From Bacilli bacterium (GTDB taxonomy: Bacteria > Bacillota_I > Bacilli_A > RF39 > UBA660): a stretch of DNA of 34,289 nucleotides. The notes under the pieces are model-generated. The model was not told where the DNA came from. It was given only the letters and a program-made list of their open reading frames with translations, and searched no databases. This document shows, one piece after another, positions 17,247 through 28,291 of this stretch. Position numbers and translations under genes: made by a program. Numbering within the stretch: the stretch's first letter is position 1; every line of letters begins with the position of its first letter. Location of the stretch: positions 1-34,289 of the forward strand of contig JAZRAM010000030.1 of NCBI GenBank assembly GCA_045634565.1, given 5' to 3'.

Positions 17247-17882
17247 CTACTTTTTTATTTTATATTCAAATTCTTCTCGAAAAGATTCTGATAGGTTTTG
17301 TACATTTAAAATACACCACCAATCGACTCTGTCTTGAAATTCTCGAATAAACCCTTCAGATAAATGTTGATTAAATGAAATATCCCACCAATCAAGTTTA
17401 TCAGCAAATTCACTGATAAATTCTTCTGACAATTTTTGATTTGCTGAAATATAATTCCAATCTACTTTATCAGAAAACTCTCTTATAAAGTCTTCTGAGA
17501 GTGTTTGACATACTGAAATATTTTCCCAATGCACTTTATCTTTAAAATCTCTGATAAGGTCTTCGGAAAGAGTTTGGCTCCCTGATATCTCAGTCCAATT
17601 TACTCTATCAGCAAATTTACGGATAAAGTCTTCCGAAAGGTTTTGAGAGTTGGAAATCCAATCCCAATCCACATCATTTAAAGATTTATAATTAGTGTTT
17701 AGTTCCTTATTAAGGAAGTTTAAGCTATCTATATCAACATTGTTCTGTGGAATTATATTATTTAATTCATCACTATTTAAGTTAGATAACAATTCTTTGA
17801 TTAAATCAATTTGTTTTTGTTTTGGTAATGAATAAACTAAATCCAAAACATCAATATTTATTTCACTTTCAAAGTTTGCCAT
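17247..17882 (-). CDS. 23-residue tandem-repeat protein (family member with about 60-aa N-terminal extension)
   Basis: 211 aa with about six NLSEDFIRKFADRVNW-type units. Confidence 0.85.
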   Translation of the reverse strand: MANFESEINIDVLDLVYSLPKQKQIDLIKELLSNLNSDELNNIIPQNNVDIDSLNFLNKELNTNYKSLNDVDWDWISNSQNLSEDFIRKFADRVNWTEISGSQTLSEDLIRDFKDKVHWENISVCQTLSEDFIREFSDKVDWNYISANQKLSEEFISEFADKLDWWDISFNQHLSEGFIREFQDRVDWWCILNVQNLSESFREEFEYKIKK

Positions 17883-24027: not shown

Positions 24028-24627
24028 TTATGACAATTCTTTGATACGTTCAATCACTTGTTTTAATTCATTTTCAAACTTTGTACGATATTCAACAACA
24101 CTTGGAAACTCACTATTTAATAGGTAATCCATTAATTCTTTAATTCCGTCTAACCAATCTGGCTGAATATCATCAGGAATATTCATTATATCAGAATATT
24201 CACATAACGGATATAAAAAACATTCTGATTTTAAACCATCTAAAGAAATAATTGGTTCTATTTCAAATAAACTTTGATTTACCAATTTTTCTGCATTGAT
24301 AATTGTTTTAACGTCTTGGGCATATCTTTTCAAATCATATTGTAAAGACTCTTTAACTACTTTTTCTCCTTTATTCAACACTCCAATATAGAAAAACATT
24401 CTATCAGTAGTTAAATCTATTCGGTTCTCATTGTTAAATAAATTATCTATTGCATCTTCAATAGATATTATATTTAGATTTTTATTATATTTTTCAATAA
24501 GTTCACCATTTTCCCAATCGTAACCATTACCATTAGTTAAAAATAAATGGTCATATACTTGTAATTTATTTTCACTAATTGAGGGATATTCCCTCATGCT
24601 ATTTATAACTTTATCTTTTAAATTCAT
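24028..24627 (-). CDS. hypothetical protein
   Basis: 199-aa ORF. Confidence 0.7.
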   Translation of the reverse strand: MNLKDKVINSMREYPSISENKLQVYDHLFLTNGNGYDWENGELIEKYNKNLNIISIEDAIDNLFNNENRIDLTTDRMFFYIGVLNKGEKVVKESLQYDLKRYAQDVKTIINAEKLVNQSLFEIEPIISLDGLKSECFLYPLCEYSDIMNIPDDIQPDWLDGIKELMDYLLNSEFPSVVEYRTKFENELKQVIERIKELS

Positions 24628-24700: not shown

Positions 24701-24726
24701 GGTGCTAAGAAATTAATCTTAGCACC
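24701..24726 (-). terminator. hairpin terminator after the DUF262-HNH gene
   Basis: GGTGCTAAGA / TCTTAGCACC followed by a T-run in gene orientation. Confidence 0.7.
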
Positions 24727-24768: not shown

Positions 24769-25884
24769 CTATATTTTTCCGCTTTTACGCTTATTAGCTG
24801 TCTTACTAATCATTTGTAAATTATCTAAAGTTGTGTAACCACCTGACCACCAAGGAATTATATGGTCTGCTTCCATTTCTTCAATTGGAAAATATTGGTT
24901 AGTAATTGGGCAAATTCCTTTTTGTCTCTCGTATGCAGTTCTTTTGTCGGCATTACTAAAGATTCTTTTAGATAGTTTACAAGCTAAATTTTCATCTAGT
25001 CCGCTTAATATATATTCGTAAACTCCTTTTTTCTCTGTAACTTCTTCATTTGCCATTAGTTCATTAACTAACTTTTCTATTTCGTTACTATCATAGATAT
25101 TAGTATGGTACTTATTATAAAGTTTTCCCCATTCTAAACCTTGCATTTCTTTTCGATAGTTGTTTTCTCCAAAGGTTGCTTTCACCCATTCAATTACACT
25201 ATTGAAATACAACCACAACTCATTTGAGTTTACATCGTGTTGATGTTTAGACATATATCCTACTATATCACCGTTGCTTATCCAATCTAATACAGTTTCC
25301 AAATATTCTTGTCTTATCGGACTACCTTTTACATATTTTTGTCCTAATTTGTAAGCGACACAATTGGGTTTGCTAAATTTTCTTTTTGCATCATCTAACC
25401 AAGTACCAACAAAATTGGCATTCAAAAGTTCTTGGTCTGTTAATTTTTCACCTGCTATGTTAATAGTTCTAAACCAATCCAAACGTTCCGAATTATCACC
25501 CTCACAGATGTATATCATTAATTCATAGTTCAAAATCTTTTCTTGTACATCACTAGGTAAGTTATGAAAAAACATTTCAACACCATTGAAATTTATTGCA
25601 AAATCACCATTGATAAATTGACAAATACTAATTGTTCTTTGTTGTCCGTCTAAAACTTCATAGTTTTCATTTCCATTATCTACCCAATATAAAGTATTCA
25701 ATGGAAAACCTTTTATAATGGTATCTATTACAGCACGTCTTTGCTTCTCACCATAGACAAACTCACGTTGATATGGTGGACGAATGTTTAATTTTCCATT
25801 CATACCAAAAACACCTTCAACTTGGTTATCTTTATATCCTAGTGCTATAATTCCGACTTTTATGCTTTGCAATGTTATTTTCAT
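24769..25884 (-). CDS. DUF262 (ParB-like) - HNH nuclease fusion, GmrSD-like architecture
   Basis: 371 aa. The N-terminus has PPYQREFVYG ... LDGQQRTISICQF (DUF262 signature). The C-terminus has ADHIIPWWSGGYTTLDNLQMISKTANKRK (HNH/His-Me finger). Confidence 0.85.
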   Translation of the reverse strand: MKITLQSIKVGIIALGYKDNQVEGVFGMNGKLNIRPPYQREFVYGEKQRRAVIDTIIKGFPLNTLYWVDNGNENYEVLDGQQRTISICQFINGDFAINFNGVEMFFHNLPSDVQEKILNYELMIYICEGDNSERLDWFRTINIAGEKLTDQELLNANFVGTWLDDAKRKFSKPNCVAYKLGQKYVKGSPIRQEYLETVLDWISNGDIVGYMSKHQHDVNSNELWLYFNSVIEWVKATFGENNYRKEMQGLEWGKLYNKYHTNIYDSNEIEKLVNELMANEEVTEKKGVYEYILSGLDENLACKLSKRIFSNADKRTAYERQKGICPITNQYFPIEEMEADHIIPWWSGGYTTLDNLQMISKTANKRKSGKI

Positions 25885-25922
25885 ATACCTTATTAATTTA
25901 ATTTGTTTGTTACTTTAGTTTT

Positions 25923-25962
25923 TATATATGTAAGGTTTGTTTCTCTCGACCTTACATATATA
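25923..25962. repeat. perfect 14-bp inverted repeat TATATATGTAAGGT / ACCTTACATATATA (12-nt loop)
   Basis: Left arm 25923-25936, right arm 25949-25962, checked base by base. Confidence 0.85.
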
Positions 25963-25994
25963 AAACCAATTTCAAACTATTTTTTTCACAATCC
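25951..25994 (-). promoter_or_regulatory. class I promoter-like element of the DUF262-HNH gene
   Basis: Motif copy upstream of ATG 25884. Its start-site end is the right arm of a 14-bp inverted repeat. Confidence 0.65.
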
Positions 25995-26012
25995 TATCGA
26001 AAAATTTTCATT

Positions 26013-26975
26013 TTATCTTTTGTGGCGGATAAGAATACGTGCATAAACTCCTTTACCGTTTAAAGTAAATTTCGGACTATTATCATTTCCATTTACAAAA
26101 CATTCTCCTTTTGCACCACTCATTATACCTAAAATTTCAAATTGATTTGGGCAATATTTATCTAGAAATGTAATAGGCACACCCATAACACCATCATAGT
26201 CCATTGGTATATCACAAGTTTTTGAAACCTCAATAGCATCATAGTTATCATATTTTTTATAATACTCATTTGAGTATTTCATATATAAATCTAAAGTTTG
26301 TTTACGTCTATCATGTTCCATATTGGTAAACCAACGAACACCTTTTACTTTTATATATCGTTTACCATTTTCGTCTATCCCACAACCTGCTGCTTCTAAT
26401 GAATAACTTTCAGGAACATAAAATTTTCTATCACCACTTGATATACTTGGACCAAACCAAAGTTTATTTTCTTTAATTAGTGGAAATATTTCTTTATATG
26501 TGATAGCATTCATATTTCCCAATATAAGGAATTGTTTTCCATATTCAACTAATTGACCAACATATTCTCTAAATAAGCTGAAAGGTGGGTTTGTTACAAC
26601 TATATCAGCTTCTTTTAGCAATTCAATACATTCAGCACTTCTAAAATCGCCATTACCTTCTAATTCTGTTACTTCTATTTCGTCAAAATCGGGCATACAA
26701 TTTCCGTTTTTGTCTCCCGTGTAAACAAGTTTTACACCTTTTCCGTTTTCTTTATATCCTGTGGATATAAGTTTTTTAAGTCCTAGAAATTCAAAGTTCA
26801 ATGAAAAGAACTTGAAAAAGTTTGATTCTCTAGCATCATCACAATTGCAGTACACTACTTTATTTTTAAAGTGAGGACGATAATATTTCAATTCGTTCTC
26901 AATATCACACAATTGTGTGTAAAATTCGTCTGCTTTTGCTTTTTTTGCTGTATGTAAATTATTATTCTTAGCCAT
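26013..26975 (-). CDS. N6-adenine DNA methyltransferase, EcoRI-methylase-like family
   Basis: 320 aa. ADEFYTQLCDIENEL ... VVYCNCDD ... VVTNPPFSLF (motif IV NPPF). This matches my recollection of the EcoRI_methylase family. Confidence 0.8.
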   Translation of the reverse strand: MAKNNNLHTAKKAKADEFYTQLCDIENELKYYRPHFKNKVVYCNCDDARESNFFKFFSLNFEFLGLKKLISTGYKENGKGVKLVYTGDKNGNCMPDFDEIEVTELEGNGDFRSAECIELLKEADIVVTNPPFSLFREYVGQLVEYGKQFLILGNMNAITYKEIFPLIKENKLWFGPSISSGDRKFYVPESYSLEAAGCGIDENGKRYIKVKGVRWFTNMEHDRRKQTLDLYMKYSNEYYKKYDNYDAIEVSKTCDIPMDYDGVMGVPITFLDKYCPNQFEILGIMSGAKGECFVNGNDNSPKFTLNGKGVYARILIRHKR

Positions 26976-27207
26976 ATCTTTTATATTTTTACGTTGTTAT
27001 TATTGTTTCTTACATATATAAAACCATTATTCACACATTTATTTCACAATCTGAGAAAAATAAATCTACTTTTTTTAGTGTTAATTAATTTAACATTAAA
27101 AAATTAATCTCTACTAATATAACCAATATAGGTTTATTTTTTTCACAAAAAAACCTCCAAACTTTTTATCATTTGGAGGTGTAAGAAAATAAAAATCAAT
27201 TGTAAAA
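26976..27207 (-). promoter_or_regulatory. composite intergenic module (P1 variant only), upstream of the methyltransferase gene
   Basis: Promoter copies at 27009-27052 and 27111-27148. P1 variant TGTTAATTAATTTAACA at 27079-27095. Hairpin at 27153-27180. Confidence 0.7.
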
Positions 27208-27781: not shown

Positions 27782-28291
27782 TTAATCTAAATATCCATGT
27801 AATGTTTTTCTTTTTACAATCATTTCGATAAATGGTTGGAAAACATCCATATGTTTCATATAAAATTTCATTGGTATTTGATATTGAAAATAGGCAATTG
27901 ACCACCATATATTACCACCTTGAGGGCATTTACAATTTGCAAATAAATCCCAATTATTTTCAATGAACTCACCTGTAAGGTTTTGATAATAATTTGTTAC
28001 CTCATACCAATCTAATTTGTCTTTATATTCCAATAATAAATCTAATGGAATTATATTTCGATGTGAACGCAATATTTCTTTTAGATAATCAATATTATAT
28101 CTAGCTAGAACTTTTATTGTTTCTAAAGATAGAAATTGATTCTTACTATCTAAGTCTTTCCATAAGTCGCATGGTGTAGGAAGTGAAACATAATCACTGT
28201 TTAATTCACTATTCAATAAACAAACTATTTTATATCCTATAGGATATTGTTGTTTATACATCTCTCTTAAATTCATTCTGATTTGTTCCAT
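27782..28291 (-). CDS. hypothetical protein, weak similarity to the 23-residue repeat family
   Basis: 169 aa. LLLEYKDKLDWYEVTNYYQNLTGEFIENNW resembles one to two repeat units. Confidence 0.65.
   Translation of the reverse strand: MEQIRMNLREMYKQQYPIGYKIVCLLNSELNSDYVSLPTPCDLWKDLDSKNQFLSLETIKVLARYNIDYLKEILRSHRNIIPLDLLLEYKDKLDWYEVTNYYQNLTGEFIENNWDLFANCKCPQGGNIWWSIAYFQYQIPMKFYMKHMDVFQPFIEMIVKRKTLHGYLD

What the first reader, a model, noticed from the sequence alone, without database searches (positions are those of the whole stretch)
24769..26975. Phage-borne methyltransferase plus DUF262-HNH nuclease pair (R-M-like or GmrSD-like module), each with its own promoter
Seen in the sequence: 26013..26975 carries NPPF (motif IV) and the DEFYTQ/VVYCNCDD N-terminal pattern of EcoRI-methylase-like N6-adenine methyltransferases. 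The next gene, 24769..25884, joins a DUF262 ParB-like domain (YQREF...DGQQRT) to a C-terminal HNH motif (DHIIPWW...NLQ...N..K). Established knowledge: DUF262 fused to a His-Me finger nuclease is the architecture of GmrSD-type modification-dependent (type IV) restriction enzymes and of several newer defence nucleases. Orphan phage methylases protect phage DNA. Inference: the pair may let the phage mark its own DNA while the nuclease attacks host or competitor-phage DNA, or it may act as an addiction-like module. Unlike a classic operon, the genes are separated by a terminator-less gap with a separate promoter. That promoter is embedded in a 14-bp inverted repeat (see next finding).
Basis: partly seen in the sequence, partly recalled or inferred. 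Interest (0 to 1): 0.65.

Follow-up and report, generated by a model that had tools for sequence, protein, structure and literature searches.

The report
Phage-borne BanLI-type restriction-modification cassette
A gut phage-like genome carries an intact methylase-plus-nuclease restriction-modification pair of the widespread BanLI family, rewired onto the phage's own promoters; only the methylase carries swappable recognition modules, which suggests the nuclease takes its target choice from the methylase.

Summary
26013..26975(-) encodes a full-length EcoRI-family N6-adenine methylase. 24769..25884(-) encodes a DUF262(ParB-like)+HNH nuclease with intact catalytic residues. Each gene has its own copy of a phage-specific promoter-like motif, and a 17-bp inverted repeat overlaps the nuclease's copy.

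This is not a GmrSD-type modification-dependent enzyme sitting next to an orphan methylase. It is a member of a conserved M->R cassette found in hundreds of bacterial and archaeal genomes and on plasmids (80 of 82 loci; median M-R gap 0 bp). PADLOC models it as a Type II system. Its characterised prototype is BanLI of Bifidobacterium (52%/46% identity), whose methylase marks one strand of the asymmetric site RTCAGG.

What is new here:
- The phage lineage split the operon with a 128-nt spacer that carries its own promoter and a structure-conserved hairpin.
- Family-wide, near-identical nucleases (92-99%) pair with methylases whose two variable segments are unrelated (10-20%). Some phages carry two methylases, and methylase-HNH fusions exist.

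I infer that specificity lies in the methylase alone and that the nuclease depends on it, as in Type III systems. This is not shown experimentally. Both genes are under purifying selection. The recognition site is unknown, and phage identity is probable but not proven.

The parts
26013..26975 (-). M gene: EcoRI-family (gamma-like) N6-adenine DNA methyltransferase, 320 aa
   Evidence: ORF. Pfam PF13651 455 bits full length. PADLOC MTase_II 420 bits. 46% identical to the M.BanLI locus. dN/dS of the N-half is 0.06-0.13 within the clade.
26580..26591 (-). Motif IV NPPF (catalytic), inside the invariant TNPPFSLF
   Evidence: Sequence. Invariant in 75 and 33 homologs.
26334..26455 (-). Hypervariable module V1 of the methylase (about residues 174-214), presumed target-recognition element
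   Evidence: Entropy 1.3-2.1 bits against <1 elsewhere. Replaced wholesale in clade relatives. A co-occurring variant contig swaps exactly these 122 nt for 113 others.
26047..26122 (-). Hypervariable module V2 of the methylase (about residues 285-310), presumed target-recognition element
   Evidence: Entropy 2.0-2.6 bits. Reassorts independently of V1. A variant contig swaps these 76 nt for 82 others.
24769..25884 (-). R gene: DUF262(ParB/Srx-like NTPase fold) - helical middle - HNH nuclease, 371 aa
   Evidence: ORF. PADLOC REase_II PDLC03418 428 bits over 1-372/372. 52% identical to R.BanLI over full length, E 8e-130. dN/dS 0.07-0.19. AF2 pLDDT 80.9; top fold hit is BrxU.
25411..25788 (-). 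DUF262/GmrSD_N domain (residues 33-158) with invariant DGQQR (79-83)
   Evidence: Pfam PF03235 E 1.6e-22. Conservation. Foldseek hits to ParB CTPase N-domains and BrxU.
24781..24924 (-). HNH nuclease domain (residues 321-368): D340-H341, N355, N364
   Evidence: Pfam PF01844. PDB 4h9d Gme HNH E 5.8e-4. Catalytic residues conserved.
27010..27050 (-). Promoter-like motif proximal to M (spacer subclass TAAATGTGTGAATA)
27109..27149 (-). Second, distal promoter-like motif upstream of M (3' element subclass ATATTAGTAGAG). M therefore has a tandem pair.
25952..25992 (-). Promoter-like motif in the M-R spacer, driving R (spacer subclass AAAATAGTTTGAAAT)
   Evidence: The motif occurs only in this phage clade among 88 loci.
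25920..25965 (-). Stem-loop: 17-bp perfect inverted repeat with a 12-nt loop. Its upstream arm (on the gene strand) is the 3' element of the R promoter motif.
   Evidence: Fold -26 kcal/mol, z -4.4. Two compensatory pair changes in L081. Unrelated but equally stable hairpins sit at the same place in L091 and L093. It is the only promoter copy in the window with such a repeat.
27153..27180 (-). Terminator-like hairpin plus T-run upstream of the cassette (end of the preceding gene)
24701..24726 (-). Terminator-like hairpin plus T-run just after the R gene

Best explanation
This is an intact, functional restriction-modification cassette of the BanLI family: an EcoRI-family N6-adenine methylase followed by a DUF262-HNH nuclease. 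A lineage of AT-rich phage-like elements from bovine and pig gut acquired it and built it into their own transcription programme.

Shown:
- Homology, intact catalytic motifs and purifying selection for both genes.
- A family-wide M->R operon.
- In this lineage only, a 128-nt spacer that gives R its own phage promoter motif, overlapped by a structure-conserved hairpin. M has two promoter motifs, and terminators flank the unit.

From the literature on the prototype: M.BanLI alone methylates one strand of an asymmetric site (RTC(m6A)GG), and the M+R clone restricts phage P1 about 10-fold.

Inferred:
(1) M methylates phage DNA at a short, probably asymmetric site set by its two variable segments V1 and V2.
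(2) R cuts DNA that lacks this mark, such as host or co-infecting phage DNA.
(3) R has no recognition module of its own and depends on M or on M's mark for target choice. This is the logic of Type III or Type I systems, not classical Type II. The ParB-like NTPase-fold domain would act as the switch or communicator and HNH as the blade.
(4) The split promoters and the hairpin let M be made earlier or in greater amount than R.
(5) Swapping of V1/V2, and sometimes a second M gene, changes specificity without touching R. That would give near-identical phages different self-marks.
For: - Domains and catalytic residues.
- Cassette conservation: M lies directly upstream on the same strand in 80/82 loci. 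Median gap is 0 bp and 72/82 gaps are <=25 bp, many with -4 or -11 overlaps. 44 full-length pairs on plasmids. More than 565 genomic relatives.
- Prototype: BanLI papers PMC3990576 and PMC13091528. The published primers map exactly on L182, whose R is 52% and M 46% identical to the window's.
- Phage rewiring: motif counts. The motif is absent from other loci. Gaps of 128-129 nt occur only in the closest clade members, L081/L082.
- Hairpin: covariation and three independent hairpin versions.
- M-only variability: clade comparison; entropy scans; exact cassette swaps in co-occurring variants. Cellular pairs have R 92-99% identical but M variable segments only 10-20% identical, and Spearman R-versus-Mvar is 0.05 over 2415 pairs.
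- M-HNH fusion proteins lacking DUF262. Two tandem M genes in L095/L096/L098.
- The Kangiella family member: the predicted GAATTC methylation was not observed, and an orphan one-strand motif CYGATG is 100% methylated.
- Purifying selection.
- A metatranscriptome contig covers most of the R gene.
Against: - No experiment on this phage. The methylated site is unknown.
- That V1/V2 are the recognition elements is inferred from variability and from the lack of any other variable region. The AF2 model of the C-terminal half is poor (pLDDT <50), so they could not be placed at a DNA cleft.
- R dependence on M is inferred from comparative patterns only. PADLOC/REBASE file the family as Type II.
- BanLI restriction was weak (EOP 0.1).
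- The promoter motif is not a canonical sigma-70 promoter. No transcription start sites are known, so 'own promoter' and 'M before R' rest on sequence logic.
- The window has no recognisable virion genes, so the carrier might be another kind of mobile element.
- GAATTC is absent from the window (0 against 11 expected). This fits neither reading cleanly.
Confidence: 0.6

Rival explanations
1. Classical Type II system. R recognises a fixed DNA sequence by itself and M protects that same sequence. V1 and V2 are tolerant surface loops, or change only flanking preference, so all variants share one core specificity.
For: PADLOC files both proteins under Type II models. REBASE and the BanLI authors treat the prototype as Type II/IIS. 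R and M are separate polypeptides. In this phage they are separately transcribed, which an independent R would tolerate. GAATTC is absent from the window.
Against: V1 and V2 are replaced wholesale, with indels, while the rest of M stays 90-100% identical. No other part of M varies enough to explain the different specificities already documented in the family: RTCAGG for BanLI, and not GAATTC in Kangiella. R shows no matching variable region. M-HNH fusions exist without the rest of R. The prototype methylates one strand of an asymmetric site, which an independent Type IIP-like R could not use safely after replication.
Confidence: 0.2
2. A GmrSD-like Type IV enzyme. The nuclease attacks modified DNA (for example the hypermodified cytosines of rival phages), and the methylase is an unrelated anti-restriction orphan that happens to be adjacent.
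For: DUF262 N-domain with DGQQR. Best fold match is BrxU, a GmrSD-family enzyme. Weak PADLOC hits of the N-domain to other defence nucleases.
Against: The C-terminal nuclease is Pfam HNH, not DUF1524. 371 aa against about 580 for BrxU, with TM-score only 0.23. Strict linkage and frequent translational overlap with the methylase in 80/82 loci. End-to-end match to a REase_II model. The homologous BanLI M+R clone restricts ordinary, non-hypermodified P1.
Confidence: 0.05
3. A selfish passenger. The cassette persists in the phage as an addiction-like or mobile module (post-segregational killing, spread by recombination) and gives the phage no benefit in infection. Methylase diversity reflects repeated recombination with cellular copies.
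For: The family is highly mobile across phyla, plasmids and a few viral contigs. BanLI lies next to an integrase. L036 lies next to IS200. The clade is mosaic around the cassette.
Against: The phage invested in its own promoters for both genes and in a conserved hairpin. The cassette sits at the same position in all clade members, with dS up to about 1.2 and dN/dS about 0.1. This argues for long-term retention under selection within the lineage. This reading does not exclude the biochemical mechanism of the best explanation.
Confidence: 0.15

Closest known systems
BanLI restriction-modification system of Bifidobacterium animalis subsp. lactis (REBASE; PMC3990576, PMC13091528)
   Same: Same two protein families in the same order. 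The window's R is 52% identical over its full length and its M is 46% identical. Sizes match (about 42 and 43.5 kDa). The catalytic motifs are the same.
   Different: In BanLI, as in most family members, the M stop overlaps the R start. Here the genes are 128 nt apart, each has a phage promoter motif, and a hairpin sits in the spacer. V1/V2 of the window's M differ from M.BanLI's, so the site is probably not RTCAGG. The carrier is a phage-like element rather than a chromosome island with an integrase.
GmrSD / BrxU / SspE (DUF262-DUF1524 nucleases; Type IV restriction and phosphorothioate-sensing defence)
   Same: N-terminal DUF262 ParB/Srx-like NTPase fold with DGQQR, joined to a C-terminal His-Me finger nuclease. 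BrxU is the best fold match. SspE (my knowledge, and review PMC12707154) also works with a separate DNA-marking system.
   Different: Canonical HNH (PF01844) instead of DUF1524. About 200 residues shorter. Obligately paired with an m6A methylase. Presumably blocked by modification rather than dependent on it.
Type III R-M systems (EcoP1I, EcoP15I)
   Same: Works like: in the prototype, one methylase marks one strand of an asymmetric site. Specificity modules lie only in the methylase, and the nuclease subunit is conserved and carries an NTPase-fold domain. EcoP1I is also phage-borne (P1; my knowledge).
   Different: Not a member. M is EcoRI-family, not a beta-class Mod. R has no SF2 helicase motor and no PD-(D/E)XK nuclease. 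No M-R complex has been shown.
EcoRI R-M system
   Same: The methylase belongs to the same Pfam family (PF13651) and has the NPPF catalytic motif.
   Different: The partner nuclease is unrelated: R.EcoRI is a PD-(D/E)XK enzyme (my knowledge). The GAATTC specificity predicted by homology was not observed for the Kangiella family member.
Virus-encoded R-M systems (chlorovirus CviAI/CviAII and others; phage P1)
   Same: A virus carries both M and R, presumably to mark its own DNA and degrade unmarked DNA (my knowledge; chlorovirus methylomes in PMC7248222).
   Different: Different enzyme families. Here the cassette was visibly adapted to a gene-by-gene promoter system and shows methylase module shuffling among close relatives.

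Membership tests
BanLI-type R-M (EcoRI-family MTase + DUF262-HNH REase) | Methylase of Pfam PF13651 with an intact NPPF motif | tested here: met
   455 bits, full-length. TNPPFSLF is invariant.
BanLI-type R-M (EcoRI-family MTase + DUF262-HNH REase) | Nuclease with an N-terminal DUF262 (DGQQR) and a C-terminal HNH (DH...N...N), about 360-380 aa | tested here: met
   PADLOC REase_II model matched 1-372/372.
BanLI-type R-M (EcoRI-family MTase + DUF262-HNH REase) | Full-length homology of both proteins to the BanLI locus itself | tested here: met
   L182 was identified by exact matches to the published primers. R 52% identical (E 8e-130), M 46% (E 3e-93).
BanLI-type R-M (EcoRI-family MTase + DUF262-HNH REase) | M immediately upstream of R on the same strand | tested here: met
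   Same order and strand. The gap is 128 nt here against a family median of 0.
BanLI-type R-M (EcoRI-family MTase + DUF262-HNH REase) | m6A on one strand of a short asymmetric site; restriction of unmethylated DNA | not testable with these tools
   Shown only for BanLI. Needs a methylome and plaque or transformation assays.
GmrSD-family Type IV restriction enzymes | DUF262 N-terminal domain | tested here: met
   PF03235 E 1.6e-22.
GmrSD-family Type IV restriction enzymes | DUF1524 C-terminal nuclease domain | tested here: not met
   Pfam reports HNH PF01844/PF14279 and no DUF1524.
GmrSD-family Type IV restriction enzymes | Stand-alone and modification-dependent, with no cognate protective methylase | tested here: not met
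   Methylase adjacent in 80/82 loci, often overlapping. Dependence on modification itself is not testable here.
GmrSD-family Type IV restriction enzymes | Overall fold like BrxU | tested here: inconclusive
   BrxU is the top Foldseek hit (E 9e-5), but TM is 0.23 and the lengths are 371 against 580 aa.
Classical Type IIP R-M (independent R and M of matched specificity) | R carries its own recognition determinants, which change together with M's | tested here: not met
   R 92-99% identical while M variable segments are 10-20% identical in 5+ locus pairs. Correlation 0.05. No variable module in R.
Type III R-M | Specificity set by the methylase alone; one-strand methylation of an asymmetric site | tested here: inconclusive
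   The comparative pattern fits and the prototype's methylation fits. Nothing has been shown for this phage.
Type III R-M | Res subunit with an SF2 helicase ATPase and a PD-(D/E)XK nuclease; beta-class Mod | tested here: not met
   R is DUF262 + HNH and M is PF13651.

The most novel reading that the evidence does not exclude
The BanLI family, now filed as Type II, may be an unrecognised class of methylase-guided restriction systems. In this reading a ParB-like NTP switch domain replaces the helicase motor of Type III enzymes. Specificity would be changed simply by swapping two small cassettes in the methylase. Phages would exploit this (split promoters, a hairpin-controlled nuclease, one or two methylases) to give each strain a private self-mark and to destroy the host's or a sibling phage's DNA.
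Probability: 0.3. Interest if true: 0.8.

Novelty: new variant of a known kind. Interest (0 to 1): 0.62.

Why it matters
If the comparative inference holds, there are four consequences.

1. A common R-M family (hundreds of genomes, many plasmids) is mis-typed. It would work by methylase-directed targeting with a ParB-like NTPase-fold nuclease. That would add a new solution to the problem Type III enzymes solve: one-strand marks on asymmetric sites.

2. It would explain why homology-based site predictions (GAATTC) fail for these methylases. It also points to V1 and V2 as the elements to read or engineer for new specificities.

3. It would show a virulent-type phage lineage domesticating a cellular R-M operon into its own promoter grammar and diversifying the self-mark among near-identical genomes. 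That is a testable case of phage-versus-phage or phage-versus-host DNA warfare in the gut.

4. The BanLI authors read the single methylase as a decayed Type IIS system. The data here (single M in 80/82 loci, under purifying selection) indicate that the single methylase is the native state.

Tried and rejected
- **DNA similarity to deposited phages:** megablast of the cassette region found nothing. tblastn of the 695-aa protein found nothing.
- **Promoter-motif scans** of IMG/VR and GTDB genomes found no match. The single metagenome scan returned only one further relative, L090.
- **PDB by sequence:** nothing for the methylase, either as a single sequence or as a profile.
- **AF2 model of the methylase:** the C-terminal half is below pLDDT 50 and Foldseek returns only generic Rossmann methyltransferases. 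V1 and V2 therefore could not be placed relative to a DNA cleft.
- **NCBIfam:** no informative hit.
- **Literature searches** for PF13651/PF03235 and for 'methyltransferase EcoRI' + DUF262 found no description of the pairing. A search to verify my recollection of an M.EcoRI DNA cross-link at Tyr204 found nothing, so I do not use it.
- **Retrieving BanLI through an actinobacterial homolog** failed; Bifidobacterium was not in the top 80. The published primers then worked.
- **Palindrome statistics** did not reveal the cassette's own site. They revealed GATC and GAATTC avoidance instead.
- **Rejected: L001 (72% nuclease identity, 146-nt gap) as a clade member.** It lacks the promoter motif.
- **Rejected: the M-R hairpin as an ordinary terminator.** No T-run follows it on either strand.
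Full report
**1. The observation**

Both ORFs lie on the minus strand at exactly the stated coordinates.

The 320-aa product of 26013..26975 matches Pfam EcoRI_methylase (PF13651) from end to end (E 2.5e-136). It also matches a PADLOC Type II methylase model at 420 bits. NPPF is at residues 129-132 and lies within TNPPFSLF, which is invariant in 75 homologs.

The 371-aa product of 24769..25884 has a DUF262/GmrSD_N domain (residues 33-158, E 1.6e-22) and a C-terminal HNH (E 5.7e-5). Its nearest solved sequence relative is the Gme HNH nickase 4h9d. DGQQR (79-83), D340-H341, N355 and N364 are invariant or nearly so across 82 and 32 homologs. The nuclease also matches one PADLOC 'REase_II' model over its whole length (1-372/372, 428 bits). 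This was the first sign that the pair is a catalogued R-M system and not a new fusion.

**2. The pair is a conserved cassette**

A scan of one genome per prokaryotic species found 242 relatives of the nuclease in many bacterial and archaeal phyla. A second scan with an actinobacterial member found more than 565.

In 80 of 82 loci held at that point, an EcoRI-family methylase lies directly upstream on the same strand. The median distance between the genes is 0 bp. It is <=25 bp in 72 of 82 loci, and many overlap by 4 or 11 bases, which is the signature of a co-translated operon. Forty-four plasmids carry the full pair, annotated 'DUF262 domain-containing protein | adenine-specific methyltransferase EcoRI family protein'. 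A few viral contigs and deposited phages carry it too, with the compact arrangement.

The exceptions:
- L071: the contig ends at the nuclease.
- L041: the methylase is on the other side.
- L036: a Bro-N protein takes the methylase's place.

**3. The characterised prototype**

A 2026 paper states that the REBASE enzyme Ban8145ORF124P (site RTCAGG) of Bifidobacterium animalis subsp. lactis is the gene annotated 'DUF262 domain-containing protein' (PMC13091528).

The original study (PMC3990576) reports the following:
- M.BanLI aligns with M.EcoRI.
- Cloned alone in E. coli, M.BanLI makes m6A on one strand of the asymmetric site 5'-RTC(m6A)GG-3'.
- R.BanLI is 43.5 kDa.
- The cloned system lowers P1vir plating about 10-fold.

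I confirmed membership by sequence. The four published primers map exactly onto a Bifidobacterium locus, L182 (integrase, M, R, with the M stop overlapping the R start). The window's nuclease is 52% identical to its R over the full length (E 8e-130), and the window's methylase is 46% identical to its M. This is the same range as every other cellular relative.

The BanLI authors read the single methylase as a decayed Type IIS system. The single-methylase arrangement in 80 of 82 loci argues that it is the native state.

**4. What this phage lineage did to the cassette**

The window is a whole 34,289-bp contig. It has 25% G+C and comes from bovine and pig gut metagenomes. Its genes are almost all unknown. 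The recognisable ones are an endolysin-like glucosaminidase, DUF932, and several paralogs that hit phrog_3532 at 1e-51 to 1e-64. No virion genes were recognised, so 'phage' is probable but not proven.

A roughly 41-nt motif, (A/T)TTGTGAAA-N15-16-TGGTT-N12, occurs 27 times in its strict form (0.01 expected) and about 46 times with one mismatch allowed. Nearly all copies are on the minus strand, one in front of almost every gene. Among the 88 loci held when it was searched, it is found only in the closest relatives.
- M has two copies (27109-27149 and 27010-27050).
- R has one copy of a different spacer subclass (25952-25992).
- Terminator-like hairpins with T-runs lie before the M promoters and after R. 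None lies between M and R.

The 128-nt M-R spacer is therefore an insertion into what is elsewhere a tight operon. The closest clade relatives (L081, L082) have a gap of the same size (129 nt).

**5. The hairpin**

The 3' element of the R promoter motif is one arm of a perfect 17-bp inverted repeat (25920-25936 / 25949-25965, 12-nt loop). Folded as RNA it gives -26 kcal/mol, z = -4.4. No other promoter copy in the window has such a repeat.
- In L081 two base pairs are changed on both sides (TATATATG/CATATATA becomes TATCTCTG/CAGAGATA).
- In the L095 group the stem has two mismatches.
- In L091 and L093 the spacer sequence is different, yet it again holds a 16-bp or a 10-bp stem next to or over the same promoter element.

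Structure is conserved and sequence is not. That favours a nucleic-acid structure over a protein operator. No T-run follows the stem, so it is not a standard terminator.

I infer that it limits read-through from M into R, and/or limits use of the R promoter, so that R lags behind M. This is not shown.

**6. The methylase varies and the nuclease does not**

Against L081:
- The nuclease gene is 94-100% identical per 100 nt.
- The first half of the methylase gene is about 90% identical.
- The second half of the methylase gene falls to 57-79%.

Aligning the clade's methylases shows two replaced segments: V1 (about residues 174-214) and V2 (about residues 285-310). They lie between blocks that stay 90-100% identical, and the two segments reassort independently. 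A co-occurring variant contig replaces exactly 26334-26455 and 26047-26122 with unrelated sequence.

L095, L096 and L098 carry two tandem methylase genes with different modules in front of one nuclease. L095, L097 and L098 encode identical nucleases, although the methylase next to the nuclease differs in V1.

Among the 116 closest methylase homologs, only these two regions are hypervariable (entropy 1.2-2.6 bits, against less than about 1 elsewhere). Among 120 nuclease homologs, no region exceeds 1.3 bits.

The pattern also holds outside the phages:

| Locus pair | R identity | M core identity | M V1+V2 identity |
|---|---|---|---|
| L004 / L003 | 99% | 79% | 12% |
| L020 / L021 | 96% | 84% | 10% |
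| L074 / L042 | 94% | 80% | 10% |
| L065 / L056 | 97% | 66% | 20% |
| L005 / L009 | 92% | 80% | 13% |

Over 2,415 pairs, nuclease identity correlates with the methylase core (rho 0.36) but not with V1+V2 (rho 0.05).

Both genes are under purifying selection in the clade: dN/dS is 0.07-0.19 for R and 0.06-0.13 for the M core, with dS up to about 1.2.

**7. Interpretation**

A methylase must hold its recognition determinants somewhere. Family members have different sites:
- RTCAGG for BanLI.
- Not GAATTC in Kangiella aquimarina. REBASE predicts GAATTC there, but two methylome studies did not see it. A one-strand motif, CYGATG, is 100% methylated in that strain and has 'no obvious candidate'.

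V1 and V2 are the only regions that differ enough to account for this. If they set the site, then a nuclease that stays 99% identical while V1 and V2 are replaced cannot carry a matching specificity of its own. It must take its target choice from the methylase or from the mark.

Two further observations fit this reading:
- Natural proteins exist in which a full methylase is fused directly to the HNH domain, without DUF262. Two sequence variants are known.
- The prototype methylates one strand of an asymmetric site. Type III enzymes make this kind of mark safe by communication between sites, powered by an NTPase.

Here the candidate switch is the ParB/Srx-like DUF262 domain. Its best structural matches are BrxU and the ParB CTPase domains.

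This mechanism is an inference. No complex, NTP dependence or cleavage pattern is known for any family member.

**8. Role in the phage**

Module shuffling among near-identical genomes is what competition between sibling phages, or changing host restriction, would favour.

I could not test this. A metatranscriptome holds a 989-nt contig across the nuclease gene. That is compatible with expression, but DNA carry-over cannot be excluded.

**9. What it is not**

It is not a GmrSD-type enzyme:
- It has no DUF1524 domain.
- It is about 200 residues shorter than BrxU.
- It is obligately linked to a methylase.
- Its prototype restricts ordinary DNA.

It is not a relative of R.EcoRI. Only the methylase is EcoRI-like.

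**10. Verdict**

The finding is real and the R-M reading is right. The family is known (BanLI, REBASE, PADLOC), so the finding is not categorically new.

What is new:
- The phage-adapted, split and hairpin-controlled arrangement.
- The comparative evidence that specificity sits in two swappable methylase cassettes while the nuclease is generic.

The recognition site, the M-R dependence and the phage identity remain open.

Noticed in passing
window 5984-30362, mostly minus strand: About 46 copies of a 41-nt promoter-like motif, (A/T)TTGTGAAA-N15-16-TGGTT-N12, one before nearly every gene. There are at least two spacer subclasses and two 3'-element subclasses, and 8-9 genes have tandem pairs. 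It does not fit the sigma-70 consensus and may be read by a phage-encoded or phage-modified polymerase. It is absent from IMG/VR and from GTDB genomes.
   Followed up: partly
whole window; L081, L090, L091-L100: GATC is completely absent (0 against 71-76 expected, z about -8.5), and is nearly absent in all clade relatives. GAATTC is absent from the window (0 against 11 expected), but relatives with other methylase modules have 1-3 copies. CCAG/CTGG is depleted (14 against 60). CCGG, GCGC and CGCG are absent. This suggests strong pressure from host restriction systems.
   Followed up: partly
window 4390-4464 (-): ARAGORN calls a tRNA-like gene with an undetermined identity and a four-base anticodon 'atat'.
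   Followed up: no
window 3220-3771, 3783-4331, 17247-17882 (and weakly 27782-28291), minus strand: A family of paralogous repeat proteins that hit phrog_3532 (unknown function) at E 1e-51 to 1e-64. This is the strongest viral signal in the window.
   Followed up: no
L095 943-2871; L096 840-2765; L098 1-1605: Some clade members carry two tandem EcoRI-family methylase genes with different V1/V2 modules upstream of a single nuclease. The two copies are not recent duplicates (dS about 0.3 in the conserved half).
   Followed up: partly
L089 4001-5158 (proteins P0173, P0180): A 385-aa protein that fuses a full methylase (with V1 like the window's) to an intact HNH domain with its zinc cysteines. 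It has no DUF262 domain and sits in a phage-like run of small genes. P0133 is a 466-aa methylase with an internal duplication.
   Followed up: partly
L036 4144-6083: The one clear exception to M-R pairing. A Bro-N domain protein overlaps the nuclease start by 4 bp in place of the methylase, next to an IS200-type transposase.
   Followed up: partly
L055 (Kangiella aquimarina DSM 16071, gene B158DRAFT_0961 = M.Kaq16071ORFDP): REBASE predicts GAATTC for this family member, but two methylome studies did not detect it. The strain has an unassigned one-strand motif CYGATG (100% m6A) and AGTACT (56%). CYGATG is a plausible product of this methylase.
   Followed up: partly
L182 1981-5598 (Bifidobacterium ruminantium DSM 6489): The published forward primer for the 'RM.BanLI' clone maps to the start of the integrase gene upstream of M. 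The 2014 construct therefore carried integrase+M+R. This may bear on the weak restriction reported.
   Followed up: no
window 24028-24627 (-) compared with L081 11270-11985 and L095 4154-4618: The gene directly downstream of the nuclease differs between clade members: a 199-aa unknown here, two small ORFs in L081, and a 154-aa protein with a weak DUF2726 hit in the L095 group. The cassette sits at a mosaic junction.
   Followed up: no
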